Virus record (IMG/VR): IMGVR_UViG_2718218355_000004
Source: a virus
Lineage: Duplodnaviria; Heunggongvirae; Uroviricota; Caudoviricetes
DNA length: 54,006 nucleotides
Strand: one strand, 5' to 3'
A model generated the notes under the pieces. The model searched no databases. It saw only the letters and a list, made by a program, of their open reading frames with translations, and was not told the DNA's origin. Shown in pieces: positions 25,700 through 52,475 of the stretch (positions within the stretch are counted from its first letter, which is position 1; every line of letters begins with the position of its first letter). Position numbers and translations under genes: made by a program.

Positions 25700-25951
25700 T
25701 TAGTCCTGATTTTTATCCACCCTGAGTAGTTCGCGCAGAGCAAAGGCATCCCCTTTTCTGGCAAGCTTAAACAATGCCGCTCGTAACTCGGCTTCACCTT
25801 TCGCTCTGCCCTTACGGATGGCCGCATAAAAATCTGTCATTGCTTCCCGATTTTCTTTCAGTCGGTTCAGATCAACATCCAGAACGTCAGCGATTTGTTG
25901 TGCAGTCATCCGGCACGCTGCCAGAGACTCGACTTTCGAATACGGAATCAT
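25700..25951 (-). CDS. Hypothetical small HTH-like protein (83 aa)
   Basis: ATG with strong GGGGGTGA SD; overlaps the 3' end of the upstream gene. Confidence 0.4.
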   Translation of the reverse strand: MIPYSKVESLAACRMTAQQIADVLDVDLNRLKENREAMTDFYAAIRKGRAKGEAELRAALFKLARKGDAFALRELLRVDKNQD

Positions 25952-26840
25952 TTGTCACCCCCATTGATATGCAGGGTGTCTTCTTCCTGTATTTTTCGTG
26001 AAGGATTTTTACTGCAGCGTTGTTCCAGGTGACCTGATGGTGAATGCGTTTATGGCTGGCACCCATCAGTGAGATTTTTACGCACGACGGCGCATACATG
26101 ACGGAGTAAAAACTTTTAACGTAGGTTCCGGAATCCAGATACAGCTCGGTCATTCCGCCGCTGTTTTTCTGCGTCTGTTTCTGCCCTAACTGGACAGCAC
26201 CGATCGTCATAAACAATTCACCACAGCGACCGAGATTCGTGTACGTATTCACATCCTCGTTAATGCGCCCCATGAATGAGAACGGTCGATCAACCGAACA
26301 GATAAAGCTGTTCATTGCCTTGCGTTTCACCCACGAAGCATGGCCGCCATTGTCACCAAGAAAATCCCCGCCCTGCGACATAGCGATGGAAAGAGCAGGT
26401 ATTGATTCGTAGTACGCCAGCATTTCAGAAAGGATCGCATCCAGTTTCCTTATCGGAAAATAGGCCTGGTCATAGTTGCGATCCACCCGAAACTGGAACT
26501 CGTGATAATCATCATCGAGCTGAATGAAGTATTTACACCCGACCAGTTTTGCCAGGTCGAAACAGGCATTACGGGCGTAAAAAATTGAGCGGCGGTCACA
26601 GAAATTATCGGCTTCGTCAAAACGACTGGCGATATCGGCTTTGGAAAACACCAGCACCTGTTCACCAAATTCAGCCATGTACTGATTCCGTGTCTTATCT
26701 TCATCATCAACAACGATAAAAATTTTCCCGGTATAGCCAGCACGACGCAACGTCCGGTAAGTCAGAACTTTGTCCGGTCGCCCGTGAGTCAGAATAAAGG
26801 CGCAAAAATCATCACGCATATTCCTCCTCCTCACCACCAT
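25887..26840 (-). CDS. Putative GT-A-fold glycosyltransferase-like / nucleotide-sugar transferase-like protein
   Basis: 317 aa; N-terminal FILTHGRPD...IFIVVDDED resembles the GT2 opening strand-helix-strand, plus a DxD-like LDDDYH motif; no TM segments. Family call is by motif only. Confidence 0.4.
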   Translation of the reverse strand: MVVRRRNMRDDFCAFILTHGRPDKVLTYRTLRRAGYTGKIFIVVDDEDKTRNQYMAEFGEQVLVFSKADIASRFDEADNFCDRRSIFYARNACFDLAKLVGCKYFIQLDDDYHEFQFRVDRNYDQAYFPIRKLDAILSEMLAYYESIPALSIAMSQGGDFLGDNGGHASWVKRKAMNSFICSVDRPFSFMGRINEDVNTYTNLGRCGELFMTIGAVQLGQKQTQKNSGGMTELYLDSGTYVKSFYSVMYAPSCVKISLMGASHKRIHHQVTWNNAAVKILHEKYRKKTPCISMGVTNDSVFESRVSGSVPDDCTTNR

Positions 26841-27603
26841 GCATGATCTCCACCATGCGCTGCGTCATCCGGACAAATCCATTTTCAATAGCCTGCTGAT
26901 AATCAATGATCACCAGCGCCGACTCCTCGAAAAAACACTGAATTTCAGAGGGGGCGTGAGCGTAATAGTCCGCAATTCTGCTGAAATTAAACACCGTGTG
27001 ACGTTCTGCCGCACACAGGAGGAATTTCTCAATATCAGGCTCAAGGGACGCCGAACGTATCCGGCTGATCAGCTCCTGAGTTTTCGTATCGTCGTACAGT
27101 TCACTGATATCCGGTTTACCGCCCGACGGCTCATAAACAGGCGTATCAATTTTCGTCGTATACGGCTCCTCCTCATTTCCTGTACCGGGCAAAACATCCG
27201 TCAACAGTTCATCAATTTCTGTCGGGATGAAGCCTGTCAGGGAGACATCAAAATCAGCATTGATTAGGTCCGACAGCTCCATCCGCAACAGATCTTCATC
27301 CCAGCCAGCATTCATCGGCAGGCGATTATCTGCCAGGCGGTACGCCTTTTTCTGCTCATCCGTCAGGCCAGACAGAACAATGACCGGAACAGAATCCATT
27401 TTGAGCATTTCAGCCGCCATAACACGACCGTGACCCGCAATAATTTCGCCCTTTTCGTCAATCAGCACCGGATTAGTCCAGCCGAATTGCTTAATACTTT
27501 CTACCAGTTGTGCCACCTGCTCAGGGCTGTGCGTCCTGGCGTTGTGCGCATACGGTGACAATTCTTGTAATGGGCGATAGACTATCTTTAATTTCTCGCT
27601 CAT
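26812..27603 (-). CDS. ParB-like nuclease domain protein
   Basis: 263 aa; N-terminal ParB/Srx-fold signature (IIAGHGRVMAA with upstream VPVIVL). Matches my recollection of the ParB-like gene next to trkG in Rac. Confidence 0.7.
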   Translation of the reverse strand: MSEKLKIVYRPLQELSPYAHNARTHSPEQVAQLVESIKQFGWTNPVLIDEKGEIIAGHGRVMAAEMLKMDSVPVIVLSGLTDEQKKAYRLADNRLPMNAGWDEDLLRMELSDLINADFDVSLTGFIPTEIDELLTDVLPGTGNEEEPYTTKIDTPVYEPSGGKPDISELYDDTKTQELISRIRSASLEPDIEKFLLCAAERHTVFNFSRIADYYAHAPSEIQCFFEESALVIIDYQQAIENGFVRMTQRMVEIMHGGEEEEYA

Positions 27604-29335: not shown

Positions 29336-29800
29336 TTACTTTAAACACTGCTCGGTTATGTATTGCTGAGCACCTTCAAGTTGGGCCTGCATCATTACCA
29401 GTCGTTCCCGGAGGGTGAAATAATCCCGTTCAGCGGTGTCTGCCAGTCGGGGGGAGGCTGCATTATCCACGCCGGAGGCGGTGGTGGCTTCACGCACTGA
29501 CTGACAGACTGCTTTGATGTGCAACCGACGACGACCAGCGGCAACATCATCACGCAGAACATCATTTTCAGCTTTCGCATCAGCTAACTCCTTCGTGTAT
29601 TTTGCATCGAGCGCAGCAACATCACGCTGACGCATCTGCATGTCAGTAATTGCCGCGTTCGCCAGCTTCAGTTCTCTGGCATTTTTGTCGCGCTGTTCTT
29701 TGTAGGCGATGGCGTTATCACGGTAATGATTAACACCCCATGACAGGCAGACGACGATGCAGATAACCAGAGCGGAGATAATCGCGGTTACTCTGTTCAT
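29336..29800 (-). CDS. Rz-like i-spanin
   Basis: N-terminal TM anchor followed by coiled-coil periplasmic domain; start overlaps endolysin stop; contains embedded Rz1. Confidence 0.8.
29395..29580 (-). CDS. Rz1-like o-spanin lipoprotein
   Basis: ORF embedded out-of-frame inside Rz; lipobox VVGC and a proline-rich stretch. Confidence 0.75.
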
Positions 29801-30294
29801 TGCTGACCCCACAAACAGATTTCACGCTCAATCTCACGACGAGTCATGAGACCTTTCCATTGCTTACCGCCAGCATATGTCCAGCGACGTAGCTGATCAC
29901 ATGCGCCTTTGATATCGCCCTGGTTTATTTTGCGAAGAAGCGTCGATGTTCTGAAATTGCCAGCACCCACGTTGTAAACGAATGAGTAAAGAGCGCCGCG
30001 CGTTGTTTCCGGTATATCGACTTTGATGTACGGGTTAATTTGTCTGGCGACCGTGGCAAGGTCTTTATTCAGGAGGGCTTTGCATTCTGCTTTGGTATAC
30101 GTTTTACCGAGCATGATGTCTTTTCCTGTATGCCCGTGACATACAGTCCATACACCAACAATATCTTTGTATGGTATGTAGCTGACACCTTCCAGACCAT
30201 CGTTACCACTTGGGCCAGTGATTAACACTGATGCTATAGCAATTGCTCCGCCACCAATAGCAGCAGCAACGACTTTTCGTAATGATGGAGGCAT
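29797..30294 (-). CDS. SAR endolysin (phage lysozyme, GH24-like)
   Basis: 165 aa with Gly/Ala-rich N-terminal signal-arrest-release segment and a lysozyme-like catalytic region. Confidence 0.85.
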
Positions 30295-30509
30295 TATTCA
30301 CCTCTCGCAGCCTTGCGCTTATCTTCTTTAATCTTGAAATAAAGGTTTGTCAGGTACGTCAGCAGGCCAAATACCAGACTACCCAGCACACCGATTGCAG
30401 CCCACTGTGACGGAGTTACTCTATCGAGCAACTGTAAAAACCAGTAGCCAGCACTGCCTGCGGAGGTGCCGTAGGCAATGCCTGTTGAAATTTTGTCCAT
30501 GGATTTCAT
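30294..30509 (-). CDS. Class II holin (phage 21 S-type pinholin)
   Basis: Start at MKSMDK (dual-start motif) with GGAGGTGAGG SD; two TM helices; charged C-terminus; overlaps endolysin start. Confidence 0.85.
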
Positions 30510-30760: not shown

Positions 30761-31156
30761 CTAACCTCGCATGTCAAAGCCAGATTTCTGAAAATCTCTG
30801 TAGACTTCCGGATTGTTGAAGGCCGGAAATTTGGCTTTATGAGCTGCGGACTTTATCGCTTCGCAATAGGCTTTATCACCGTTACTGGTAGATATTTTTA
30901 ACGCCGTGCCATCCTGAGAGAATTCCATATGCAACCTGCATTTTTTCCCTTTCCAGTTATGCGGCTCATCAAGTTTGGCATTAATTGCAGCTCTGATTCC
31001 CCGCGCTTGCGCCCCCCATTCATCCTGATCATCCCAGCGTCCTGAACTGCAACTACCTGTAGCAGTAGTTTTGTGGCAATCTGAAGGGTGTAAAGGTGTG
31101 CATCCCGCAACAAAACCGACCCAAAAAGTCAACATAACGATTTTCTTTAATCCCAC
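30761..31156 (-). CDS. Lipoprotein with TolA C-terminal domain (domain III)-like region, paralogue 2
   Basis: 131 aa; GTG start with GAGGAG SD; signal peptide plus lipobox VAGC; C-terminal region shares the spaced GKKC-L / DG / GD-C / EVY-F pattern with the neighbouring paralogue. Confidence 0.55.
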   Translation of the reverse strand: MGLKKIVMLTFWVGFVAGCTPLHPSDCHKTTATGSCSSGRWDDQDEWGAQARGIRAAINAKLDEPHNWKGKKCRLHMEFSQDGTALKISTSNGDKAYCEAIKSAAHKAKFPAFNNPEVYRDFQKSGFDMRG

Positions 31157-31306
31157 TTCTTGCTCCTCAATCCATTAAAATCTCAGCAATAGTAGTTGTT
31201 ACGTCCGCCACTGGCTCAGAGCTGACTATCCGCTAAATTTAGCTCAGTGCCGTAGCTGTGTCAGAACAAACCTAAGCCGAAACCGTTTATTACAAAACAA
31301 TAAATA

Positions 31307-31735
31307 TCAGGGTTTAAAATCCAGCACCCCATTTTGAAATACTTTATATACTTCCGGCGAAGGGGGGGCAGGTATATCAGCATTCTTTATCGCATTCATC
31401 GCTTCACGACATAAATCGAGGTCTCCACTTTCTCTTTTAACCTCCAGTAGAAGGCCATTCGGGGCCATATGCATTCTCAGTGTACACTCTTTTCCTGAAT
31501 ACTTACTCGCATCCCCGAACTGTTTTTCGATGGCGCTCTTGATTTGATGGGCATACAGACGGATATCCTCACTAACATCAGAAGTACGTTCAGATGAACT
31601 CACATACTGTGTCTCTATTGCTTTATCGGAGTAATATGATGTACGGTCATGATAATTTGTCGATACAGCATCAGTGCACCCGATAATAATCCCACTAATA
31701 ATCAACGTAAGAATTGATGCGCTACGAAAACCCAT
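31307..31735 (-). CDS. Lipoprotein with TolA C-terminal domain (domain III)-like region, paralogue 1
   Basis: 142 aa; signal peptide plus lipobox IIGC; C-terminal 85 aa (QIKSAIEKQF...GKECTLRMHMAPNGLLLEV...IPAPPSPEVYKVFQNGVLDFKP) closely resembles my recollection of the TolA C-terminus. Confidence 0.6.
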   Translation of the reverse strand: MGFRSASILTLIISGIIIGCTDAVSTNYHDRTSYYSDKAIETQYVSSSERTSDVSEDIRLYAHQIKSAIEKQFGDASKYSGKECTLRMHMAPNGLLLEVKRESGDLDLCREAMNAIKNADIPAPPSPEVYKVFQNGVLDFKP

Positions 31736-32326
31736 TTTTCCTCACATATGTCATATAGTAAAGGATTATATATACCGTTGTTTTGGACGCTCAAACAGCG
31801 AATCAGATCAAATAAAACGCACATTTGTTAACATTTACACAAAGTCTGCGTGGGATATTCTGAAAGAATATCCATAATGTGGAGAGAATCTATTGAAGTG
31901 CATGGTGCCGGGTGCCTCCCGGTGAACAAAATGTTCGTGATACCTGTCGGCGACAGAAAAGGTTAATGGTATCACCCCACCGCACAGGGGGATTCACCAT
32001 GCAGGAGTTTTCTTAGCAAACTCACTGCGCGCCCGGCAACTCCCAACCACATAAAATGCGGAGTTTGTGGTATTTATGCATATAACTCGCAGGAATTATC
32101 TTAAAAAACTGATGTCGATCCGGATTAAAAAGAAGCAGGTCATCATCAGATGACTGGAAAAAAGGAAAACAAAAAATACTCATCATACAGTTTTGATTGC
32201 AGGGATGAGCCTGCTATGCACAATATGCAGAATATAAGCAAGATAAAAATATGCAGGCATATTATTTCGGATTTTGTTATTAACACAACCTTTTTAATAA
32301 TCATTTGGCATACAATAAACCAGCCC

Positions 32327-32352
32327 AAAAAGAACCGCCTAAACAGGCGGTT
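32327..32352 (-). terminator. Rho-independent terminator on the minus strand
   Basis: AACCGCC-TGTTTA-GGCGGTT followed by CTTTTT on the minus strand, just below the IS2 insertion. Confidence 0.45.
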
Positions 32353-32600
32353 GGTCAATACAAAGGATGCTTCGTCTTTATTATAGTAATCTGAGGCGTC
32401 GGGTGTCTTGTATCAGACAACATATTGTCCCGCTAAACAGCGAATTACAAACCACCCTGCAATGATCTCTCATCTCATTTTATATGAGTTGACGACATCA
32501 GGATAACGCTAGACTGGCCCCCTGAATCTCCAGACAACCAATATCACTTAAATAAGTGATAGTCTTAATACTAGTTTTTAGACTAGTCATTGGAGAGCAG

Positions 32601-32966
32601 ATGATTGATGTCTTAGGACCGGAGAAACGCAGACGGCGTACTACACAGGAAAAGATCGCTATTGTTCAGCAGAGTTTTGAACCGGGAATGACGGTCTCCC
32701 TTGTTGCCCGGCAACACGGTGTGGCAGCCAGCCAGTTATTTCTCTGGCGCAAGCAATACCAGGAGGGAAGTCTTACTGCTGTGGCCGCAGGAGAGCAGGT
32801 CGTTCCTGCCTCTGAACTTGCTGCTGCCATGAAGCAGATTAAAGAACTCCAGCGCCTGCTCGGCAAAAAAACGATGGAAAATGAACTCCTTAAAGAAGCC
32901 GTTGAATACGGGCGTGCAAAAAAGTGGATAGCGCACGCGCCCTTATTGCCCGGGGATGGGGAGTAA
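32601..32966 (+). CDS. insC: IS2 transposase OrfA (InsC)
   Basis: 121 aa from ATG at [13 protein letters not shown]; HTH transposase N-terminal domain. Confidence 0.9.
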
Positions 32967-33829
32967 GCTTAGTCAGCCGTTGTCTCCGGGTGTCGCGTGC
33001 GCAGTTGCACGTAATTCTCAGACGAACCGATGACTGGAAAGATGGTCGCCGCAGCCGTCACTCAGATGATACGGATGTGCTTCTCCGTATACACCATGTT
33101 ATCGGAGAGCTGCCCACGTATGGTTATCGTCGGGTATGGGCGCTGCTTCGCAGACAGGCCGAACTTGATGGTATGCCTGCGATCAATGCCAAACGTGTTT
33201 ACCGGATCATGCGCCAGAATGCGCTGTTGCTTGAGCGAAAAACCGCTGTACCGCCATCGAAACGGGCACATACTGGCAAAGTGGCCGTGAAAGAAAGCAA
33301 TCAACGATGGTGCTCTGACGGGTTCGAGTTCCGCTGTGATAACGGAGAAAAACTGCGAGTCACGTTCGCGCTGGACTGCTGTGACCGTGAGGCACTGCAC
33401 TGGGCAGTCACTACGGGCGGCTTCGACAGTGAAACAGTACAGGACGTAATGCTGGGAGCGGTGGAACGCCGCTTCGGCAACGAGCTTCCGGCGTCTCCAG
33501 TAGAGTGGCTGACGGATAATGGTTCATGCTACCGGGCTAATGAAACACGGCAGTTTGCCCGGATGTTGGGGCTTGAACCGAAGAACACGGCGGTGCGGAG
33601 TCCGGAGAGTAACGGCATAGCAGAGAGCTTCGTGAAAACGATAAAGCGTGACTACATCAGTATCATGCCTAAACCAGACGGGTTAACGGCAGCAAAGAAC
33701 CTTGCAGAGGCGTTCGAGCATTATAACGAATGGCATCCGCATAGTGCACTGGGTTATCGCTCGCCACGGGAATATCTGCGGCAGCAGGCCAGTAATGGGT
33801 TAAGTGATAACAGGTGTCTGGAAATATAG
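32924..33829 (+). CDS. insD: IS2 transposase OrfB (InsD), DDE catalytic domain
   Basis: 301 aa overlapping insC in the -1 frame (typical IS3-family OrfAB arrangement). Confidence 0.9.
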
Positions 33830-34009
33830 GGGCAAATCCAAACGCATCATCAGCCCCTGCCAAGAAATATCAAAACTCCCGCCAGCAATGTGTTATCACA
33901 ATATTGTAAAAAAAACACAGCACCGAAACTATAACTGGTCTCTGTTATAATTTGGAGCAGAAAGACCAGTTGCCCAACTAGCAGCATTCTCCCCTGCTTT
34001 CCTGACGTA

Positions 34010-34036
34010 AAAAAACCGCATTAAGCGGTTTTTTTA
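34010..34036 (-). terminator. tR'-like terminator downstream of the Q-like gene
   Basis: AAAAAAACCGC-ATTAA-GCGGTTTTTTT; symmetric A/T tracts allow termination in either direction; about 80 bp downstream of the putative Q stop. Confidence 0.45.
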
Positions 34037-34115
34037 CGATGTCCATGTCTGCAATCCGCCTCGCGATACAGCTTTGCGAAGCATAGCAAAATTGAAGCAG
34101 TTTATACGTAAGAAA

Positions 34116-34658
34116 TCAAGCCATTTTCTCAGCAAATGATTCACGCATGGGAATATATAGGGCATACTCAGCAACAGCTAACCAATTAGCAATCCGTTTT
34201 TCGCATGTGCTAAAACACCACTCTGGGTGTGCATCATTTAGCAATTCAGCCATTTTGCGCTTAGTCATCCCCCGCCCTTCATAGCGTTGCCGGAGAATGC
34301 AAATCAATCCTGGATGCTCTGCCAGCACCTCACTTATGACTCGATCAATACATAACGCCTCTGCATCAGTACAATGCGCCAGCCAGCTCTTTTGCTTGCC
34401 GTTGATCATCTCTCGCAAAAACGCTTCCAGCTCAGCTTTCTCTATTCCCGCTTTTTTCATTCTGCGCAGGGCTTCATTAATGGCTGTTTTCGTCAGTTTT
34501 TTGGATGCCAACAACTGATTGAACATATTCCCTGACCTGCCACCGCCAATATACGACCAGCGCCCCCACATACGTAGTTTTCCCTGAATCCAGACACTTT
34601 CCAGCGTGGTGAGGCGAAGGTGTTCTCCGCTTTTTCCTGTATTCGTTGGGTAAATCAT
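34116..34658 (-). CDS. Putative late-gene antiterminator (Q-like)
   Basis: 180 aa in the Q position (after ybcO-like gene, before a terminator and the lysis region); assignment by position and general resemblance only. Confidence 0.4.
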   Translation of the reverse strand: MIYPTNTGKSGEHLRLTTLESVWIQGKLRMWGRWSYIGGGRSGNMFNQLLASKKLTKTAINEALRRMKKAGIEKAELEAFLREMINGKQKSWLAHCTDAEALCIDRVISEVLAEHPGLICILRQRYEGRGMTKRKMAELLNDAHPEWCFSTCEKRIANWLAVAEYALYIPMRESFAEKMA

Positions 34659-36012: not shown

Positions 36013-36168
36013 TTACTCCTCAGGTTCGTAAGCTGTGAAGACAGCGACCTCCGTCTGACCGGTTCGGATTCGCACCTCGCAGAGGTCTTTCCTCGTTACC
36101 AGTGCCGTCACTATGACGGTTAAACAGATGACAATCAGTGCGACTAACATCGCCTTTTGCTGCTTCAT
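36013..36168 (-). CDS. hok: Hok/Gef-family type I toxin (51 aa)
   Basis: MKQQKAMLVALIVICLTVIVTALVTRKDLCEVRIRTGQTEVAVFTAYEPEE, near-identical to my recollection of HokD/RelF; AAGGAG SD 7 nt upstream; the longer in-frame ORF in the track is an artefactual extension. Confidence 0.85.
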   Translation of the reverse strand: MKQQKAMLVALIVICLTVIVTALVTRKDLCEVRIRTGQTEVAVFTAYEPEE

Positions 36169-36379
36169 AGCCTGCTTCTCCTTGCCTTCCGGCGCGTAAG
36201 AGGCTAACCTACATGTGCAAAGCATGAAATTGGCCTCAGATTAATGTTAAGCGTCTTGCCGGACGCGTAATGTTATCTGGGGCTTTTCTCTATCTGCCTT
36301 TGGTGTTCATGCCTGAGGCAGATAGCCTCAAGCACCCGCAGCAATTCTACTTAACTCCCGTCACCTCGCCAATATAAAA

Positions 36380-36469: not shown

Positions 36470-36888
36470 GACAACCTCCTGTATTGGACGTACACCAGTT
36501 CTGATAAATATGAGGCTGTCTCATCATTGATTCAATATAACTATTGGGTATAGTTTCTGTGATTTTGTTCTGTAGAAATGGAACACAACAACCAGTCACC
36601 ACCAGCACTTCTTTAAATACGCCAAGTCCGACGCAAGCTAACCTTCTAGTCCGCTTTGAGCGAGGAGCGGACCAAACCCGGCCAACTGACTCTTAAAGGG
36701 GCCGCAGGAATTTTTCGTCTGAACTTTCGAAGCTCCTCTCCCTGAAGACAGAAAACTTCTGTGTGCTGTGGGAATATTGAATCTTTGCCTTAGATATAAA
36801 TAATTTTATCCCGCCTGAAGTTTACATTATTTTATTTATCTGTTTTTCTAAATCAGACTGCACTCCTTACTTAAATCAGGAGCCAGTC

Positions 36889-38088
36889 ATGCCATTTGTT
36901 ATTTATGTGTTTACTATCAGTGCCTTTGCGCTCGGACTCGCGGAATTTGTCCCCATTGGGCTGACAGACGTTATGGCTCAGGGGTTGTGTGTGGGTGTGG
37001 AGCAGACCGGGGCAGCGGTTACAACCTATGCACTGGGGGCAACGTTCGCGGCACCCGTACTGTCTGCGCTGACAGCAAGCTGGAGCCGGAAAAATGTAAT
37101 GCTTACAACTGCCGTTGTGTTTACTGCCGGTAGTCTGGCGGCCGCGTTTGCAGCCACATTACCTCAGCTCCTGTTAGCGCGGTTCATTGCTGGTCTGGGA
37201 CACGGCCTGTTTCTGGCTGCGGCATCCAGTACCGCAGCTCGTCTTGCTGGACCGGGTAAAGCAGGCAGAGCGGTGGCTGTGGTATTTGGTGGCTTTACTC
37301 TGGCGATGGCAATCGGCGTACCGCTGAGTACATGGTTGGGGGGGGTGGTCTCATGGCGTCCAGTTCTCGGCGCTATTGCCGCTTTTGGCGCGTTCGGATT
37401 CCTTGGACTGTTGTTCGGTATGAAAGATCCCGTACGCAGCGTGCCCGGTGAACATAGTGACTCAGCAATGCAGAATATCGGCATGCTGTTTAACCGTAAG
37501 TTGCTGGCCGGCGCGCTGGTTACGGTGCTGGCGTATGCAGGCTCGTTTACGGATTACACCTTTATCGCACCTATTCTGACGCAGGTGACAGGGGTTACCG
37601 GAGCAACGGTGAGTCTGTTTATGCTGGTTTACGGTATTACAGCTGCGGTAGGTAATATTCTTGGTGGGAAACTTACCGACAGCATGGGGGTTAATCGTGC
37701 CAATATACTCATCATTAGCGGCATTGTTGTTGTCGTGCTTGGTATGTGGCTGCTGTCATCCTCACCGGTGAGCATGGGCATTCTGGTTGCGCTGCTGGGT
37801 ATGGTGACATTTGCCGCAGTGCCGGCACTGCAGGCCCGTCTGATTGGTGTCGCTGAGCAACATGCTCCTCATGCGCATGGTGTTGCTGCCGGCCTGAATA
37901 TTGCGGGCTTCAACTCAGGTATAGCGCTGGGATCAGTACTGGGCAGCATTACTATAAGCCACGCCGGTATCGTGTATACCGGTATCAGCGGTGCGATTGT
38001 TTCTCTGCTCGGCCTGCTGTTGCTGCTTGCACAAATCCGTCGCAGCCACAGTCGTAAATTTCAACAGGTTAAAATCGTAGGCCAGTAA
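36889..38088 (+). CDS. MFS transporter (sugar/drug efflux-like)
   Basis: 399 aa with about 12 predicted TM helices and an MFS-type loop 2-3 motif. Confidence 0.8.
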   Translation: MPFVIYVFTISAFALGLAEFVPIGLTDVMAQGLCVGVEQTGAAVTTYALGATFAAPVLSALTASWSRKNVMLTTAVVFTAGSLAAAFAATLPQLLLARFIAGLGHGLFLAAASSTAARLAGPGKAGRAVAVVFGGFTLAMAIGVPLSTWLGGVVSWRPVLGAIAAFGAFGFLGLLFGMKDPVRSVPGEHSDSAMQNIGMLFNRKLLAGALVTVLAYAGSFTDYTFIAPILTQVTGVTGATVSLFMLVYGITAAVGNILGGKLTDSMGVNRANILIISGIVVVVLGMWLLSSSPVSMGILVALLGMVTFAAVPALQARLIGVAEQHAPHAHGVAAGLNIAGFNSGIALGSVLGSITISHAGIVYTGISGAIVSLLGLLLLLAQIRRSHSRKFQQVKIVGQ

Positions 38089-38099
38089 AGGGAGGTTAT

Positions 38100-38792
38100 A
38101 TGCTTACCCGTGAAAATATGCTTAATGGCACATTTGTCAGGGTGCATGAAGCGCTGCTCCCGGCGAATATGCTCTGGGACGCTGAAAAAATACGCGCATC
38201 AATGAACTCTACTCTGGAGGAGCGCCCGACGGGTGCTCCTGTCTGGATATTTGCCTACGGGTCATTGATGTGGAATCCCGTGCTGGCGATTGAAGAAATG
38301 CAACGGGCCCGTCTGAAAGGATGGCAGCGCAGTTTCTGCATTCGTTTGATATCCGGACGAGCGACTCCTGATGTCCCCGGCAGGATGTTATCGCTCGACG
38401 AAGGTGGAATTACCGAAGGTATTGCGTTCAGACTGCCGGAATCGACTCTTATTAATGAGCTGGAAATTGTCTGGACGCGCGAGATGATAACCGGTCTTTA
38501 CCGTCCGGTCTGGGCAGACGTTTCGCTAGGAAACGGTGAGGAAATTCAGGCGCTGGCTTTCGTATCAGACAGACTGCATCCGCATTATGAACAGGACAAT
38601 CTTACAGCGACCGTAGCGTTGAGCATCGCATCTGCCCGTGGAGACATTGGCACGAATGCAGATTATGTATGGAAACTGCAGGCCACTCTGGGTGCGTTGG
38701 GAATACGGGATGATTACGTGAGTGAACTGGCCCTTGCTCTGCATGAGGCTCCCTGTAACGATAAACTTCATCAGCGAGGCGCTTCACTATGA
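38100..38792 (+). CDS. ChaC-family gamma-glutamylcyclotransferase-like protein
   Basis: 230 aa with the ChaC signature IFAYGSLMWNP and alignment to ChaC throughout, from memory. Confidence 0.8.
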   Translation: MLTRENMLNGTFVRVHEALLPANMLWDAEKIRASMNSTLEERPTGAPVWIFAYGSLMWNPVLAIEEMQRARLKGWQRSFCIRLISGRATPDVPGRMLSLDEGGITEGIAFRLPESTLINELEIVWTREMITGLYRPVWADVSLGNGEEIQALAFVSDRLHPHYEQDNLTATVALSIASARGDIGTNADYVWKLQATLGALGIRDDYVSELALALHEAPCNDKLHQRGASL

Positions 38793-39670
38793 GCCATCTG
38801 AGCCATCTGCGAACGTTTCTTGAGGCCTATCGCTCTGGCTCCTTTTCAAAGGCGGCAGAACTACTGGGCATCACTCAGCCCGCGGCGTCACAGCATATCC
38901 AGTCTCTTGAGACTCTGGTTGGTAAGCGTCTGTTTATCAGGCAGGCCAGAGGCGTGACGGCAACCGAAGCTGCGGATGAGCTTGCCCGCTCAGTTTCACC
39001 CTTCATTGATGGTCTGGAAGAAAAGCTGTCCTCTTTCCGGTCAGGCTCTGTACGCGGGGGAACAATTAATCTGGCAGGACCGCCAGATTTTATTCATTCC
39101 CGGCTTGGGACAGTAATGGCTCCACTAATGAAGGAGGGGTATCGCCTACGCTTTCATACCGGCAATAAGCAACGTATTTATTCCCTTTTGCATGACGGGA
39201 GCGCCGATCTCGCTGTTACCGCATCTATGCCTGATGACCGTCTGTACGGCTATGCACATCTACTGACTGAACGCATGCTCCTTGTTCATGCTCCCGCCAT
39301 GTCAGAGATCATCGGATCAGAACCTGGTGCTGAAACGCTTGCCTCATTACCGCTGATTGCTTATGACGAAGAGTTGCCACTGATTAGAGCGCTCTGGGCC
39401 TCCATGTTTCAGAGAGCCCCTGAGATGCAGGCTACATTCACCATTCCGGATTTACGTATTATCCGCGACTTGGTCTGTGACGGCCACGGGTGGACAGTGC
39501 TGCCGGATTATCACTGTGACAATGACCTGAAAAGTGGTCGCCTGATTTCAGTGACACCTGCAGACCTCGCTCCGACTAATCATCTTTATCTGGTCTGGAA
39601 CAAAAGGACGGCTAATAACAGCCGAACCGCCTATGTTCGGGATTACATTCTTAAAACGTTTCCGCGTTGA
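38789..39670 (+). CDS. LysR-family transcriptional regulator
   Basis: 293 aa; N-terminal LysR HTH (FSKAAELLGITQPAASQHIQSLE) and C-terminal substrate-binding domain; start overlaps the chaC-like stop. Confidence 0.85.
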   Translation: MSHLSHLRTFLEAYRSGSFSKAAELLGITQPAASQHIQSLETLVGKRLFIRQARGVTATEAADELARSVSPFIDGLEEKLSSFRSGSVRGGTINLAGPPDFIHSRLGTVMAPLMKEGYRLRFHTGNKQRIYSLLHDGSADLAVTASMPDDRLYGYAHLLTERMLLVHAPAMSEIIGSEPGAETLASLPLIAYDEELPLIRALWASMFQRAPEMQATFTIPDLRIIRDLVCDGHGWTVLPDYHCDNDLKSGRLISVTPADLAPTNHLYLVWNKRTANNSRTAYVRDYILKTFPR

Positions 39671-39800
39671 TGTTTGAAACGGATGATTGGCGATGCGTAT
39701 CATAAGTTACGTATGTCCGCTTCTGGCACAAAGCAGACGCCCACTCTCACGCGAATGCTTTGCCCTTGACTTGCCAACAACCGTATCGCTTGCTCCGCAA

Positions 39801-41078
39801 CTATGGTTTTTTATTAGAATCTTCGCCACTAAATAAATTATAATAAATTGATTTTATTATATATCTGTCAGAATCTATATGGTCAGCACGAGTAGCATGC
39901 TCTAATGTTTCAAATGCTAGGGTTTGTGCGGCTTCAGCAAAAATTCCAGGCCACCCCTTACTCAGCATCGACAGTCCTTTAAGTACCCTTATCTGAATTT
40001 CCCTCATACTGGCACCATCGCGCGCAACAGGTGAGAAAAAGTCTTCAAGTAGATCGTTATTCTGAAGTGGTGCAACATGTACAGAAGGATATTTCACTTC
40101 TATTTCATCAGATTTATTCTGCGCGTAAGCGGAAAGTATACGTACACCTCTGCCAATGACATCAATGGCGGTTCCAGGATCGTTCACTGCGGGGGAAAGG
40201 GCTCGGCAGGCTATTTCGGCCATGACGCTAAGACAAAATCGGGGGTCCTGAGCAAATGAACGTACATCCGAGACAATAATCGTCTCAAGTAAATCGGTGC
40301 TGATTGATGACTCCTGGCCCTGACTCAGGTACAAAACTGGCGTGGACGGATGTATGAAACTGCCCGGCTGCGCCACGAGGTATACATGACGGGGATCATT
40401 GGTCAGCAGCTTGCTGAGTTTCACCATATCAACATATTCAACATAGCCAATCTTTTTCGGATAAACTGCAACCGTTCCTTTCGGCTGTTCATTGTTCTCA
40501 AGCCATGGATATCCGCCGAGACAGGGATTTCTTGCTCTCGCAATAAATGTTTCGATGGCCGCCTGTTCTACTTTTGCCGTTGTCTCACCAACCCTCCCCA
40601 GAGAGGTCAAATGCTGTATCCAGCGAAGCAATGTGATGAGGATTAAGGCAATGACAACCAGTGTTACAATGAATAAAATGACTCTCCCCCTTTCTCCATA
40701 AGCTCCCATATTGAGGGCAATAATCCCTACCAGACTGAAGAGAAAAGAACCGATGAAGGTGGCCAGTACATTTTGTGTGGTGACGTCTTCAACAACTAAA
40801 CGAGTAGCTCTGGGAGTCACATTAGTAGTGGCTGAACCGTAGGCTGTGACCATGATGCTCAGCGAAAATGTGGTCACTGCCAGCATACTCGATGCCAGTA
40901 TGTTCAGAATGTTATCGACTGCTTCCGCACCAACTTTCACGGAAACCGACTCAGGTATCATTGATTTAAAAAGAATTGATAAAAGGGCCGTTATTATTGC
41001 GACAATTGCGAATAACGTTGCCCTGAACCATAGTTTTTTAAATGTCTGCTTCAGCATCCATTTCCAGCGTGAAATCAT
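39801..41078 (-). CDS. Membrane protein, DUF2254-like
   Basis: About 425 aa with N-terminal multi-TM region and soluble C-terminal domain; start chosen at internal ATG with GAGGGA SD; family by recollection. Confidence 0.5.
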   Translation of the reverse strand: MISRWKWMLKQTFKKLWFRATLFAIVAIITALLSILFKSMIPESVSVKVGAEAVDNILNILASSMLAVTTFSLSIMVTAYGSATTNVTPRATRLVVEDVTTQNVLATFIGSFLFSLVGIIALNMGAYGERGRVILFIVTLVVIALILITLLRWIQHLTSLGRVGETTAKVEQAAIETFIARARNPCLGGYPWLENNEQPKGTVAVYPKKIGYVEYVDMVKLSKLLTNDPRHVYLVAQPGSFIHPSTPVLYLSQGQESSISTDLLETIIVSDVRSFAQDPRFCLSVMAEIACRALSPAVNDPGTAIDVIGRGVRILSAYAQNKSDEIEVKYPSVHVAPLQNNDLLEDFFSPVARDGASMREIQIRVLKGLSMLSKGWPGIFAEAAQTLAFETLEHATRADHIDSDRYIIKSIYYNLFSGEDSNKKP

Positions 41079-41113
41079 TCTGCATTCCCTCATATTGCAG
41101 CCGGGATAAATAA

Positions 41114-41134
41114 ATGCCGCCTCTGTGGCGGCAT
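41114..41134 (-). terminator. Hairpin downstream of the BCCT transporter gene
   Basis: ATGCCGCC-ACAGA-GGCGGCAT (minus strand) followed by an A/T-rich tract. Confidence 0.35.
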
Positions 41135-41141
41135 GTTGCTG

Positions 41142-43145
41142 TTAACGAACCAGATGCAGGAAGTGCAGGTGTTTTTCGTACTGGTCCAGTATGTCATTAA
41201 TCAGCTGTTCCTGATTCCAGCCCATTACATCATAATTTTGGCCGCCCTCTTTGAGATAGACTTCAGCGCGATAATATCGATGTTGTTCACTCTGCTGCTC
41301 ATCATTATCCAGCGCAGCGAGCGCGAAGGTCGGTGAGTTATACCCGCGAAGCCTCACTTCATATATATAATTCAGCTCGTTGCCCAAATCGACTTCAAGG
41401 CGAATACGATCCTCGGCGGCGTCACTGATGTGGCTTATCGTTCCCTGCTTGTTAAGTTCCTCCTGAACCAGCGTCATGGCGGGTTGGATAATGTCGTCCA
41501 TAAAACGTTTCACAAGAGAGCGCTTCGGCAAATACGCGATATTGCGTAACCTTCTCTGCCAGGGAATTGGGTTACGTGCAGCCGTAGGAGCAATAGTCGC
41601 CATGCTAAGGCTTTCACGCTTGGTCAAATCCCGACGCAGGGCTTTTAACAGTCCGTATATGGATATTAATAAGATAACTGAGAAGGGCAATGCACTCGCT
41701 ATCGTTACGGTTTGCAACGCACTCAGCCCCCCTGCGATCAGCAGGGCAATAGCAACAACGCCCATGAGCGATGCCCAGAAAATTCGCTGCCAGACGGGCG
41801 TGTTTGCCACCCCACCTGATGCCAGAGTATCCACAACCATTGCCCCCGAATCAGCAGACGTTACAAAGAAGACGATGACCATCGCCATTGCAATGAATGA
41901 CAGCACGGAAGAGAACGGGAAATGCTCCAGGAAATTAAACAGGGCAAGCGCAACATCCTGCTGAACGGTATTGGCGAGGTCAGTGGCGCCCTGGTTCATG
42001 ATGAGATAGATGGCGCTGTTTCCAAACACCGTCATCCACATGAGCGTAAAGCCGGCGGGAACAAACAACACGCCAGTCACGAACTCACGAATTGTCCTGC
42101 CGCGGGAAACGCGTGCAATGAACATACCTACAAACGGCGACCATGAAAGCCACCATCCCCAGTATAATAATGTCCAGCCCCCCAGCCAGTTGCTCGACTT
42201 GGGTTCATACGCGTAAAGGTTGAACGTTTTACTCACCAGTTCCGACAGATAACCACCCGTATTTTCCACAAATGACTTCAGCAGAAGCACAGTGGGACCC
42301 AGGCACAAGACCAGCGCCAGGAGCAACACCGCCAGGCCCAGATTAAGCTCAGACAGGATGCGTATTCCCTTGTCCAGGCCGGACACCACCGAAATCGTCG
42401 CTAACCCCGTGATGACCACGATCAAAATGACCTGTACCGTTTCATTGATGGGCACGCCGAAAAGATGGTTCAAACCGGCATTCACCTGCAATACACCGTA
42501 ACCCAGCGATGTTGCAACGCCAAAGACAGTGCCTATCACGGCGAAGATATCAACCGCGTGGCCTATAGGCCCGTAAATGCGATCGCCGATAATGGGATAG
42601 AGCGCAGAACGCAGCGTTAAAGGCAGACCGTGACGGTAACTGAAAAAGGCCAGAATCAGCGCCACGATGGCATAAATTGCCCATGCGTGCAGACCCCAGT
42701 GGAAGAACGTCAGGCGCATGGCTTCCTTCGCTGCCGCAACGGTCTCTGGAGTGCCGACAGGTGGCGAAAGATAATGCATCACAGGTTCGGCAACGCCAAA
42801 GAACATCAGGCCGATCCCCATCCCTGCCGAAAAAAGCATCGCGAACCAGGAGTGGTAGCTGAAATCAGGCTGCGCATGGTCTGGGCCCAGCTTTATATCA
42901 CCGTAACGTGAGAGTCCAAGGAACGTGACGCTCAGTAAAATCAGGGCCACAGCAAGTATGTAGAACCAGCTGGCATTCGTGAAGATTTGTTGCTGAAGTA
43001 GTTTAAAATTTTTGTCGGCGACATCCGGGAATACGGCGGCAAAGGCGACAAGAAGGAAAATTAGCAAAGCAGATGTAAAGAATACCGCTTTGTTAATCTG
43101 GCTTGTAGACTTCTTTGGGGTTGTATCATTTTCACTCATAATCAT
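41142..43145 (-). CDS. BCCT-family transporter, BetT-like (choline/betaine/carnitine)
   Basis: 667 aa; BCCT transmembrane core with conserved Trp-rich motif (WTLLYWGWWLSWSPFVGMFIARVSRGRTIREF) and long C-terminal cytoplasmic extension like BetT. Confidence 0.85.
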   Translation of the reverse strand: MIMSENDTTPKKSTSQINKAVFFTSALLIFLLVAFAAVFPDVADKNFKLLQQQIFTNASWFYILAVALILLSVTFLGLSRYGDIKLGPDHAQPDFSYHSWFAMLFSAGMGIGLMFFGVAEPVMHYLSPPVGTPETVAAAKEAMRLTFFHWGLHAWAIYAIVALILAFFSYRHGLPLTLRSALYPIIGDRIYGPIGHAVDIFAVIGTVFGVATSLGYGVLQVNAGLNHLFGVPINETVQVILIVVITGLATISVVSGLDKGIRILSELNLGLAVLLLALVLCLGPTVLLLKSFVENTGGYLSELVSKTFNLYAYEPKSSNWLGGWTLLYWGWWLSWSPFVGMFIARVSRGRTIREFVTGVLFVPAGFTLMWMTVFGNSAIYLIMNQGATDLANTVQQDVALALFNFLEHFPFSSVLSFIAMAMVIVFFVTSADSGAMVVDTLASGGVANTPVWQRIFWASLMGVVAIALLIAGGLSALQTVTIASALPFSVILLISIYGLLKALRRDLTKRESLSMATIAPTAARNPIPWQRRLRNIAYLPKRSLVKRFMDDIIQPAMTLVQEELNKQGTISHISDAAEDRIRLEVDLGNELNYIYEVRLRGYNSPTFALAALDNDEQQSEQHRYYRAEVYLKEGGQNYDVMGWNQEQLINDILDQYEKHLHFLHLVR

Positions 43146-52078: not shown

Positions 52079-52273
52079 ATGAGATATGACAATGTTAAAC
52101 CATGTCCATTTTGTGGTTGTCCATCAGTAACGGTGAAAGCCATTTCAGGATATTACCGAGCGAAGTGTAACGGATGCGAATCCCGAACCGGTTATGGTGG
52201 AAGTGAAAAAGAAGCACTCGAAAGATGGAATAAACGAACCACTGGAAATAATAATGGAGGTGTTCATGTATAA
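52079..52273 (+). CDS. ralR: Restriction alleviation protein RalR/Lar
   Basis: 64 aa from ATG at MRYDNVKPCPFCGC, Cys-rich. Confidence 0.8.
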   Translation: MRYDNVKPCPFCGCPSVTVKAISGYYRAKCNGCESRTGYGGSEKEALERWNKRTTGNNNGGVHV

Positions 52274-52475
52274 AATTACCGCCACTATTGAAAAGGAAGG
52301 TGGCACTCCTACTAACTGGACAAGATATTCAAAATCTAAACTAACGAAATCAGAATGCGAAAAAATGCTCTCAGGTAAAAAAGAAGCAGGCGTTTCCAGA
52401 GAGCAGAAAGTAAAACTGATAAATTTTAATTGCGAGAAACTTCAGTCCTCGAGAATTGCATTGTATTCAAATTAA
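52266..52475 (+). CDS. ydaC: YdaC-like small protein
   Basis: 69 aa from ATG at MYKITATIEKEGG, overlapping the ralR stop. Confidence 0.6.
   Translation: MYKITATIEKEGGTPTNWTRYSKSKLTKSECEKMLSGKKEAGVSREQKVKLINFNCEKLQSSRIALYSN

What the first reader, a model, noticed from the sequence alone, without database searches (positions are those of the whole stretch)
32505..33845. IS2 with intact 5-bp target-site duplication inserted in the late-operon leader between Q/tR' and the lysis genes
A complete 1331-bp IS2 flanked by AACGC direct repeats lies downstream of the Q-like gene and tR'-like terminator (34010-34036) and upstream of the TolA-like and lysis genes. The insertion likely uncouples Q-dependent late transcription from the lysis and morphogenesis genes, making an otherwise complete-looking prophage defective or altering its induction.
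Basis: partly seen in the sequence, partly recalled or inferred. Interest (0 to 1): 0.55.

Follow-up and report, generated by a model that had tools for sequence, protein, structure and literature searches.

The report
IS2 copy in a prophage late leader
A common E. coli jumping gene (IS2) recently inserted into a non-coding stretch of a Rac-type prophage, just past the point where the phage's late-gene switch engages, so it is an ordinary insertion that probably does not switch the late genes off.

Summary
Window 32510-33840 is an intact 1331-bp IS2, 100% identical to copies elsewhere in E. coli. It is flanked by a 5-bp duplication, AACGC. The reconstructed empty site occurs, uninterrupted and 100% identical, in more than 400 complete E. 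coli genomes, including a near-isogenic prophage in strain OSUCMP42NDM. The exact insertion is in none of 5,426 complete genomes, so it is recent and private.

The host element is a Rac-site lambdoid prophage whose late genes lie on the minus strand. The Q-like gene (DUF1133) is a distant Q21 homologue of the Gifsy-1 AntQ type. Comparison of 25 related loci places the late promoter on the Q stop codon, a conserved -10-like pause element five bases after the -10, and the terminator at 34004-34036. IS2 therefore sits about +240 from the start site and about 160 nt past the terminator, downstream of where Q loads.

Q-loaded polymerase suppresses polarity and ignores terminators. This leader also already contains two further terminators and varies by kilobases among relatives. 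The claim that IS2 uncouples Q from the late genes is therefore not supported, though it remains untested. A different strain, AH01, has an IS2 exactly between the -10 and the pause element; that insertion would uncouple them.

This is ordinary biology of low interest.

The parts
32505..32509 (.). Left copy of the 5-bp target-site duplication, AACGC
   Evidence: Read directly from the sequence. The site is present as a single copy in empty-site genomes.
32510..33840 (+). Complete IS2, 1331 bp. The transposase genes are on the + strand, antisense to prophage late transcription.
   Evidence: Full-length copies 100% identical occur elsewhere. It is 95-96% identical to copies annotated as IS2.
32510..32551 (.). 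IS2 left terminal inverted repeat (IRL)
   Evidence: Inverted repeat I1; end sequences printed.
33800..33840 (.). IS2 right terminal inverted repeat (IRR). Late transcription enters the element here.
32601..32966 (+). IS2 orfA (InsC-like, HTH_Tnp_1 domain). The A6G frameshift site is at 32918-32924.
   Evidence: The 11PC annotation of the identical copy as a programmed-frameshift gene supports this.
32924..33829 (+). IS2 orfB (InsD-like; HTH_21, rve and rve_3 DDE integrase core)
33841..33845 (.). Right copy of the target-site duplication, AACGC
34116..34658 (-). Q-like antiterminator gene (DUF1133, AntQ type, distant Q21 homologue)
   Evidence: Pfam DUF1133 with a marginal PF06530 match. PHROG 753 'Q-like', E = 2e-79. 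A family profile hits Q21 structures 6P18/6JNX at E = 1.7e-5. Relatives 84-89% identical are followed by Rfam isrK.
34080..34119 (-). Predicted late promoter PR'. The -35 is TTGATT (34119-34114, overlapping the Q stop codon), followed by a 17-nt spacer, the -10 TTCAAT (34096-34091), 5 nt, and the -10-like TATGCT (34085-34080), a candidate sigma-dependent pause element. The start site is at about 34084.
   Evidence: The same -35/17/-10/N5/TAnGCT geometry appears in 20 of 26 sequences (the window plus 25 related loci from several genera). It is a prediction and has not been mapped.
34004..34036 (-). tR'-like intrinsic terminator. It is symmetric (A-run, hairpin, T-run), so it should also stop transcription leaving IS2 toward Q.
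   Evidence: The 88-nt segment 33998-34085 folds at -30.4 kcal/mol, z = -3.9. A hairpin plus T-run lies 65-105 nt after the -10 in relatives. A weak isrK-like Rfam match spans 34009-34082.
32325..32352 (-). Second intrinsic terminator on the late strand, downstream of IS2
31846..32032 (-). STnc100-family sRNA-like element in the leader
   Evidence: Rfam 86.6 bits against a gathering score of 47.
30761..31735 (-). Two tandem TolA-C-terminal-domain genes (31307-31735 and 30761-31156). They form a moron with its own promoter-like site (31794-31765) and a terminator at 30635-30618.
   Evidence: Pfam TolA, PHROG 5772 and the promoter/terminator scan.
29336..30509 (-). Lysis cassette: S21-type holin (30294-30509), lysozyme (29797-30294) and Rz (29336-29812)
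   Evidence: Pfam and RefSeq annotation of relatives.

Best explanation
This is a recent, strain-private transposition of an intact IS2 into the long, non-coding, cargo-tolerant leader of the late operon of a Rac-site lambdoid prophage.

The insertion point is about 240 nt downstream of the predicted late-promoter start site and about 160 nt beyond tR'. It is therefore past the place where the Q21-type antiterminator (DUF1133/AntQ type) loads onto RNA polymerase. Late transcription enters IS2 through its right end and runs antisense to the transposase genes.

Q-loaded polymerase ignores hairpin terminators and suppresses Rho-dependent polarity. The most likely consequence is therefore a late leader lengthened by 1.3 kb, with at most a modest loss of late-gene expression and no uncoupling.

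What is shown: the identity and integrity of IS2, the target-site duplication, the empty site, and the position relative to conserved promoter, pause-element and terminator sequences. What is inferred: that the promoter and pause element function as in phages 21 and lambda, and that Q-modified polymerase reads through IS2.
For: - IS2 identity: 100% identical full-length copies elsewhere, with the expected transposase domains and frameshift site.
- Empty site: the reconstructed site is found 100% identical and contiguous in complete genomes, with 444 genomes holding at least 80% of it in one place.
- Recency: the near-isogenic prophage in OSUCMP42NDM (99.98-100% identical over the flanks) lacks the IS2. 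The exact junction is absent from 5,426 complete genomes, from metagenome contigs and from viral contigs.
- Q family membership: PHROG 753 at 2e-79; the family profile hits Q21 structures at E = 1.7e-5; relatives 84-89% identical carry isrK immediately after Q, as at Gifsy-1 antQ (PMC4825925).
- PR', pause element and terminator: the architecture is conserved in 20 of 26 sequences across Escherichia, Shigella, Citrobacter, Klebsiella, Enterobacter, Buttiauxella and others. The terminator segment folds at -30.4 kcal/mol.
- Native obstacles: the uninterrupted leader already holds terminators at 32352-32325 and 30635-30618.
- No strong hairpin-plus-U terminator was found inside IS2 on the late strand.
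- Leader plasticity: a relative with 92% identical Q and 99% identical lysis genes has an unrelated 1.2-kb leader carrying two tRNA genes.
- Literature: Q loads at the QBE and pause element and then ignores pauses and terminators. [quoted passage not shown]
Against: - There are no expression or induction data for this strain.
- The promoter, pause element and start site are predicted from conservation, not mapped.
- This promoter's spacer lacks the TGAGCA repeats that form the phage 21 QBE, so the Q-binding site here is unidentified.
- DUF1133 antitermination has been studied only for Gifsy-1 AntQ, and not on this template.
- A few weak hairpin-plus-U motifs exist inside IS2 on the late strand.
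- 1.3 kb of untranslated antisense RNA is a good Rho substrate if Q modification is incomplete.
- The extra 1.3 kb could matter for headful packaging of an already long prophage (at least 54 kb).
Confidence: 0.62

Rival explanations
1. IS2 acts as a polar block, and late transcripts terminate inside the element through Rho-dependent or weak intrinsic sites. Lysis and morphogenesis genes are then no longer driven by Q, and the prophage is defective.
For: IS2 lies between PR'/tR' and all late genes. Its late-strand RNA is untranslated antisense RNA 1.3 kb long. A few weak hairpin-plus-U motifs are present, for example near 33242 and 33352. IS2 insertions are classical polar mutations for ordinary transcription; the titles cited link IS2 polarity in gal to rho.
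Against: The insertion is downstream of the Q-loading region. Q complexes suppress polarity and terminators. The native leader already contains stronger terminators that Q must overcome. No strong intrinsic terminator lies within IS2.
Confidence: 0.2
2. IS2 is functionally irrelevant because the prophage is already domesticated or non-inducible for other reasons. Possible reasons are the cargo island between the replication and nin/Q genes, an oversize genome for its capsid, or unknown point defects.
For: A 6.3-kb block of non-phage genes (MFS transporter, gamma-glutamylcyclotransferase, LysR regulator, DUF2254 protein, BCCT transporter; 36889-43145) lies between the replication module and the nin/Q genes. 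It is conserved in relatives. The trkG and TolA-like morons add further length. The prophage is at least 54 kb and has a P22-type capsid and terminase. The same prophage type is visibly decayed in other strains, such as HS30-1. The 'phage' records that resemble it are in-silico prophage predictions, not isolated virions.
Against: All structural, lysis, replication, recombination and integrase ORFs are full length. The 100%/99.98% identical relative has no pseudogene flags in these modules apart from model-length artefacts at tolA and ynaK. Sakai prophage Sp10, which integrates at the Rac site, is transferable (PMC2669165).
Confidence: 0.3
3. IS2 acts as a mobile promoter that switches on the downstream TolA-like or lysis genes in the lysogen.
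For: IS3-family ends can carry or evolve outward promoters (PMC12095673).
Against: The promoter scan reported no promoter-like site at the left junction facing the TolA and lysis genes. The IS2 end tested in that paper had no detectable promoter activity. A terminator at 32352-32325 lies between IS2 and the downstream genes, which have their own promoter-like site.
Confidence: 0.03

Closest known systems
IS2 (IS3 family) as catalogued for E. coli K-12 (InsC/InsD)
   Same: The length is 1331 bp, the duplication is 5 bp, and the terminal repeats are imperfect. There are two ORFs with an A6G -1 frameshift, an HTH domain and a DDE (rve) domain. Identity to copies annotated as IS2 or InsC/InsD is 95-96%.
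   Different: This is an isoform about 4-5% diverged from the copies labelled IS2. It is itself widespread: 1,284 records are at least 99% identical. Nothing in it is structurally new.
Classical polar IS2 insertions (gal, lambda), whose polarity is Rho-dependent and relieved by phage antitermination
   Same: An IS2 sits inside a transcription unit, between the promoter and the distal genes.
   Different: Here the incoming polymerase is expected to be Q-modified before it reaches the element, so the classical polarity should be largely suppressed. The comparison rests on the literature and on my own recollection of the gal/N experiments. It was not tested here.
Phage 21 Q / PR' / QBE / pause element / tR' cassette (PDB 6P18, 6JNX)
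   Same: The Q protein is homologous (profile E = 1.7e-5). The promoter lies directly after Q, a -10-like element sits in the initially transcribed region, and a terminator lies 65-105 nt downstream. Several relatives carry GTGAGC motifs in the spacer that resemble the TGAGCA subsites of phage 21.
   Different: The window's promoter is displaced about 23 bp relative to most relatives: the hexamer that serves as their -10 serves here as the -35. Its spacer has no TGAGCA repeat. Sequence identity to Q21 is very low.
Gifsy-1 antQ-isrK locus of Salmonella (PMC4825925)
   Same: Salmonella and E. coli DUF1133 loci 84-89% identical to the window's Q carry Rfam isrK immediately after the Q gene. The short terminated transcript predicted here (34082-34009) gives a full-length but sub-threshold isrK match.
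   Different: The window lacks the C4 antisense RNA and antirepressor module that follows isrK in those loci. Its leader instead carries an STnc100-like element and TolA-like genes.
Moron slot between Q and S in lambdoid phages (stx and tRNA genes in Stx phages; nmpC::IS5 in DLP12)
   Same: This is a variable, kilobase-scale, non-essential region that Q-dependent transcription has to cross. Relatives here carry tRNA genes instead.
   Different: The cargo here is an IS plus TolA-domain genes. The Stx and DLP12 comparisons come from general knowledge and were not tested here.

Membership tests
IS2 (IS3 family) | Element of about 1.33 kb bounded by imperfect terminal inverted repeats | tested here: met
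   The element is 1331 bp. The terminal arms at 32519-32551 and 33800-33832 are 79% complementary, and the ends are TAGACTGG... and ...AAATCCA.
IS2 (IS3 family) | 5-bp target-site duplication | tested here: met
   AACGC lies on both sides and is single-copy in empty-site genomes. Four other independent IS2 insertions in the same leader also show 5-bp duplications.
IS2 (IS3 family) | orfA (HTH) and orfB (DDE/rve) joined by a -1 frameshift at A6G | tested here: met
   Pfam finds HTH_Tnp_1 in orfA, and HTH_21, rve and rve_3 in orfB. AAAAAAG lies at 32918-32924. The identical copy is annotated as a programmed-frameshift gene.
IS2 (IS3 family) | High nucleotide identity to reference IS2 | tested here: met
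   Identity is 95.5% to the feature annotated 'insertion sequence:IS2' in SfX and 96.5% to copies annotated InsC/InsD. It is 95.8% to the AH01 copy named 'IS3-like element IS2 family transposase'.
IS2 (IS3 family) | Transposition competence (circle or figure-eight intermediates, junction promoter) | not testable with these tools
   This is inferred only from intact ORFs and ends and from 100% identical copies at many loci.
Q21-type late antitermination cassette | Q protein homologous to Q21 (PF06530) | tested here: met
   PF06530 scores 26.1 bits against a cut-off of 26. PHROG 753 gives E = 2e-79. A profile of 16 family members hits 6P18/6JNX at E = 1.7e-5.
Q21-type late antitermination cassette | Promoter immediately downstream of Q with a -10-like pause element in the initially transcribed region | tested here: met
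   TTGATT-17-TTCAAT-N5-TATGCT is present, and the same geometry appears in 20 of 26 sequences. Only sequence presence and conservation are shown; pausing itself is not testable here.
Q21-type late antitermination cassette | Q-binding element: direct repeats between -35 and -10 (TGAGCA x2 in phage 21) | tested here: inconclusive
   There is no TGAGCA in the window's spacer, TCTTACGTATAAACTGC. Relatives have GTGAGC motifs. The window-type QBE is unidentified.
Q21-type late antitermination cassette | Intrinsic terminator between the promoter and the late genes | tested here: met
   A hairpin plus U7 lies at 34036-34004; the 88-nt segment containing it folds at -30.4 kcal/mol, z = -3.9. It is conserved in relatives.
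Q21-type late antitermination cassette | Q-dependent read-through of the terminator | not testable with these tools
   This needs in vivo or in vitro transcription assays.
Polar IS insertion that inactivates a downstream operon | IS located between the promoter and the distal genes of one transcription unit | tested here: met
   IS2 lies at about +240 of the predicted late transcript, upstream of all late genes.
Polar IS insertion that inactivates a downstream operon | Transcription actually terminates within the IS | not testable with these tools
   No strong intrinsic terminator lies on the late strand inside IS2. Rho-dependent termination cannot be assessed in silico.
Polar IS insertion that inactivates a downstream operon | The polymerase entering the IS is termination-sensitive | tested here: inconclusive
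   The insertion is downstream of the predicted Q-loading region, so the polymerase should be Q-modified and resistant. That step is inference and was not measured.

The most novel reading that the evidence does not exclude
The Q-to-lysis leader of this Rac-type prophage may be a recurrent, selected landing pad for insertion sequences that tune or silence prophage functions in a position-dependent way. Roughly 450 carriers in the collection, plus this window, show five independent IS2 insertions and one IS1 within about 2.4 kb. One of them (AH01) falls precisely between the late promoter's -10 and its pause element. Another (FDAARGOS_1279) falls inside the predicted TolA-moron promoter. Two more lie about 45 nt upstream of an STnc100-like sRNA. 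If this is selected, it would represent stepwise domestication of a prophage lysis switch by insertion sequences.
Probability: 0.1. Interest if true: 0.4.

Novelty: already known. Interest (0 to 1): 0.12.

Why it matters
It matters little. The case is a clean, datable example of an IS2 hop into a prophage, with a near-isogenic empty-site relative available for comparison.

It offers a convenient natural test of whether a DUF1133/AntQ-type antiterminator carries polymerase through an IS. The window strain (IS2 at about +240), AH01 (IS2 between the -10 and the pause element) and OSUCMP42NDM (empty site) form a ready-made allelic series.

The comparative work also pins down the late promoter, pause element and terminator for the poorly characterised DUF1133 Q family. 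That may help annotators of Rac-type and Gifsy-type prophages.

Tried and rejected
- **Alternative late promoters near the insertion.** I considered the promoter-like site at 33873-33846, whose -10 abuts the duplication, and the site at 32409-32380, which is followed by a terminator. I rejected both as the Q-dependent promoter. They are weak consensus matches in a scan that found no more sites than shuffled sequence (10 found against 8.0 +/- 2.9 expected). The conserved architecture lies at the Q stop codon instead.
- **Exact filled junction elsewhere.** I searched complete E. coli genomes, metagenome contigs and viral contigs and found none.
- **Orientation bias of IS2 in the leader.** My first searches could only join same-strand pieces, so the apparent 4-of-4 same orientation was an ascertainment artefact. 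Inverted-end queries found one opposite-orientation insertion. The final count, 4 to 1, is not significant.
- **Hot-spot hypothesis.** IS2 has about 24,000 places across 5,426 genomes of about 5 Mb each. About one IS2 copy is therefore expected in 450 leaders of 2.4 kb. Four were observed in the collection. That is a modest excess, of the size expected for non-essential, non-coding DNA, and I did not pursue it.
- **Active relatives.** The similar 'phage' records (vB_EcoS-...) turned out to be in-silico prophage predictions from clinical isolates. They are not evidence of active phages.
- **Q versus PDB with a single sequence.** This search was sub-threshold (E = 0.27) and needed a family profile to become significant. 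I judged structure prediction unnecessary after that.
- **tRNA genes.** None were found in the window.
Full report
**1. The observation**

Window 32510-33840 reads as an IS2. It starts TAGACTGGCCCCCTGAATCTCC and ends GGGGCAAATCCA, and it is 1331 bp long. The terminal regions form imperfect inverted repeats.

It has two overlapping + strand ORFs. The first, 32601-32966, carries an HTH_Tnp_1 domain. The second, 32924-33829, carries HTH_21 plus rve/rve_3 integrase-core domains. They are joined at an AAAAAAG slippery site at 32918-32924.

A megablast against 5,426 complete E. coli genomes finds full-length copies that are 100% identical on many chromosomes and plasmids. In all, 1,284 records are at least 99% identical. 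Copies explicitly annotated as IS2 or InsC/InsD are 95-96% identical. The copy in strain 11PC is 100% identical and is annotated as a programmed-frameshift IS3-family transposase.

AACGC lies directly outside both ends, at 32505-32509 and 33841-33845. I rebuilt the empty site by joining the flanks with a single AACGC. That 1205-bp sequence matches contiguously at 100% in the 39 uninterrupted records listed, and 444 complete genomes hold at least 80% of it in one place.

**2. Context**

The flanks map to the Rac prophage locus, between ttcA and ydfK/uspF/ompN. The window is essentially one Rac-type lambdoid prophage.
- The pin recombinase gene lies near position 551 and the integrase gene ends at 54006.
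- The recET and early-left genes are on the + strand.
- The cro-like, replication, nin, Q, lysis, terminase, head and tail genes are on the - strand.

Late transcription therefore runs leftward on the - strand. It enters IS2 at its right end, antisense to the transposase genes.

Downstream of IS2 in that direction lie the following features:
- an intrinsic terminator at 32352-32325;
- an STnc100-family sRNA-like element at 32032-31846 (Rfam 86.6 bits);
- two tandem TolA-C-terminal-domain genes with their own promoter-like site and terminator;
- an S21-type holin, a lysozyme and Rz;
- trkG, a ParB-like gene, a TAGT glycosyltransferase gene, terminase, and P22-type head and lambda-type tail genes.

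**3. How recent and how private the insertion is**

Strain OSUCMP42NDM carries the same prophage. It is 100.0% identical over window 1-25000 and 99.98-100% identical over the rest. Its site is empty. Its only other large difference is an IS1-bounded composite inserted at window 36858-36867.

Queries spanning either filled junction find no genome with IS2 at this exact site. The 32-nt junction is also absent from the metagenome and viral contig collections.

**4. Whether the upstream gene is a Q**

The 180-aa product of 34658-34116 is Pfam DUF1133, with a threshold-level match to PF06530. Yin et al. give PF06530 as the Q21 family.
- PHROGs places it in family 753, 'anti-termination protein Q-like', at E = 2e-79.
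- Alone it hits the Q21 structures only at E = 0.27.
- A profile of 16 family members from seven genera hits Q21 (6P18, 6JNX) at E = 1.7e-5 over most of the chain.
- Salmonella and E. coli loci whose Q is 84-89% identical carry the Rfam family isrK, above its gathering score, immediately after the Q stop codon.

IsrK is the short terminated transcript made just downstream of antQ, the experimentally studied Gifsy-1 antiterminator (PMC4825925). The 'Q-like' call is well supported.

**5. Where Q acts**

I took the sequence downstream of the Q stop codon in the window and in 25 related loci. In 20 of the 26 sequences the same layout recurs:
- a TTGnnn -35;
- a 17-nt spacer;
- a TTnAAT -10;
- exactly five bases;
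- a -10-like TAnGCT hexamer;
- 65-105 nt further on, a GC-rich hairpin followed by a T-run.

This is the promoter, sigma-dependent pause element and terminator arrangement described for Q cassettes.

In the window the elements are as follows:
- -35 TTGATT at 34119-34114, overlapping the Q stop codon;
- -10 TTCAAT at 34096-34091;
- TATGCT at 34085-34080;
- a hairpin plus U7 at 34036-34004. The 88-nt segment containing it folds at -30.4 kcal/mol, z = -3.9.

A full-length but sub-threshold isrK match covers 34082-34009, which is exactly the predicted short transcript.

Two caveats apply. None of this is mapped experimentally. The window's spacer also lacks the TGAGCA repeats of the phage 21 Q-binding element, although several relatives carry GTGAGC there.

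**6. Consequence of the insertion**

IS2 sits about 240 nt after the predicted start site and about 160 nt after the terminator's U-tract. By then Q should already be riding on the polymerase.
- Q-loaded complexes ignore pauses and terminators, because Q narrows the RNA-exit channel.
- The uninterrupted leader is already about 2.2 kb of mostly untranslated RNA, with two further intrinsic terminators that late transcription must pass.
- Neither the consensus scan nor my hairpin-plus-U scan finds a strong intrinsic terminator inside IS2 on the late strand; there are only a few weak candidates.
- The leader is evolutionarily plastic. A relative with 92% identical Q and 99% identical lysis genes has an unrelated 1.2-kb leader carrying two tRNA genes.
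- The symmetric terminator at 34004-34036 should stop any transcription that leaves IS2 toward Q.
- The promoter scan reported no promoter-like site at the IS2 left junction facing the downstream genes.

My best reading is that IS2 is a near-neutral passenger that lengthens the leader. I put about 0.6 on largely preserved Q-dependent late expression and about 0.2 on strong polarity.

Whether the prophage is inducible at all is a separate, open question.
- Its structural, lysis, replication and recombination genes look intact.
- It carries a 6.3-kb non-phage cargo island between the replication and nin/Q genes.
- It is at least 54 kb long, with a P22-type capsid and terminase.
- The similar 'phage' records are computational predictions, not isolated virions.

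**7. A useful contrast**

Other strains carry independent insertions in the same leader:

| Strain | Element | Duplication (window coordinates) | Orientation |
|---|---|---|---|
| 11PC | IS2 | GTTAT, 33944-33948 | same as the window's |
| ABW_A19 | IS2 | GCATA, 32078-32082 | same as the window's |
| 2017.15.01CC | IS1 | at 32071-32078 | not applicable |
| FDAARGOS_1279 | IS2 | 31772-31776, inside the predicted TolA-moron promoter spacer | opposite |
| AH01 | IS2 | GCAAA, 34086-34090 | same as the window's |

The AH01 duplication consists of exactly the five bases between the -10 and TATGCT. That allele separates the promoter, and presumably the Q-binding site, from the pause element and everything downstream.

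The number of hits is modestly above a uniform expectation: about one expected against four in the collection, based on IS2 copy density. That excess is what one expects for dispensable non-coding DNA. The 4-to-1 orientation split is not significant. My first searches could not have detected the opposite orientation.

**8. Comparison with known systems and verdict**

The element is IS2 by every feature I could test. The surrounding switch is a Q21-family cassette of the Gifsy-1 antQ-isrK type, with an unidentified Q-binding site.

An IS in the Q-to-S 'moron slot' of a lambdoid prophage is a familiar situation. Nothing here lies outside known biology. The finding is real, its anatomy is correct, its functional claim is unsupported but untested, and its interest is low.

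Noticed in passing
L030 (E. coli AH01) 3491-4831; equivalent to window 34086-34090: An independent IS2 is inserted with the duplication GCAAA. Those are exactly the five bases between the predicted late-promoter -10 (TTCAAT) and the conserved -10-like TATGCT. This allele, unlike the window's, should truly disconnect Q loading from the late genes.
   Followed up: yes
L002 (11PC), L031 (ABW_A19), L032 (2017.15.01CC), L036 (FDAARGOS_1279); window equivalents 33944-48, 32078-82, 32071-78, 31772-76: Four more independent IS insertions (three IS2, one IS1) lie in the same 2.4-kb Q-to-TolA leader. One is inside the predicted TolA-moron promoter spacer. Two are about 45 nt upstream of the STnc100-like element.
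   Followed up: partly
window 31846-32032 (-): There is an Rfam STnc100 sRNA match (86.6 bits against a gathering score of 47) in the late leader, just upstream of the first TolA-like gene. It ends at a hairpin plus T-run near 31816-31850.
   Followed up: no
window 34009-34082 (-); L009 4588-4661; L005 4588-4664: The predicted short late-promoter transcript gives a full-length but sub-threshold isrK match (21.6 bits). Close DUF1133 relatives carry bona fide isrK followed by a C4 antisense RNA and an antirepressor-like gene, as at Gifsy-1 antQ.
   Followed up: partly
window 34080-34119 (-) compared with L010-L027: In the window type (also L003, L004, L007, L011 and L012) the late promoter is shifted about 23 bp downstream. 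The hexamer overlapping the Q stop codon, which is the -10 in most relatives, serves here as the -35. The -10/N5/TAnGCT spacing is preserved, and the spacer loses the GTGAGC (phage 21 QBE-like) motif.
   Followed up: partly
window 30761-31735 (-): Two tandem genes encode TolA C-terminal domains (142 and 131 aa; PHROG 5772, function unknown). They are arranged as a moron with its own promoter-like site (31794-31765) and terminator (30635-30618). They are candidate decoys for colicins or filamentous phages that use TolA; this is speculation.
   Followed up: no
window 36889-43145: A 6.3-kb block of non-phage cargo (MFS transporter, gamma-glutamylcyclotransferase, LysR regulator, DUF2254 protein, BCCT transporter) sits between the replication/DUF977 genes and the hokD/nin/Q genes. 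It is conserved in HS30-1 and OSUCMP42NDM. In HS30-1 an ISApl1-mcr-1 unit lies next to it.
   Followed up: partly
window 36858-36867; L034 13027-18649: The near-isogenic prophage of OSUCMP42NDM has a 5.6-kb IS1-bounded composite at this site, containing a truncated ISEcp1 and small toxin genes. The site is empty in the window.
   Followed up: partly
window 25887-27603 (-): A ParB_N-domain gene (263 aa) overlaps a TET-associated glycosyltransferase (TAGT) gene (317 aa) between trkG and the small terminase gene. This may be a DNA-modification module.
   Followed up: no
window 32325-32409 (-): A promoter-like site (AAGACA-18-TATAAT) is followed about 30 nt later by a good intrinsic terminator. 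It could be a very short transcript or a second regulatory leader, just downstream of the IS2 site. There is no Rfam match.
   Followed up: no
window 33850-33987 (-): A 45-codon hydrophobic ORF (MLLVGQLVFLLQ...) ends 5 nt before the IS2 duplication. It is unannotated in relatives, is disrupted by the IS2 of strain 11PC, and may be a chance ORF.
   Followed up: no
window 52272-52450 (-), 36163-36337 (-), 1273-1471 (-): Rfam finds RalA (antitoxin of RalR), sok (partner of hokD) and IS009 at gathering score, as expected for Rac-type prophages.
   Followed up: no
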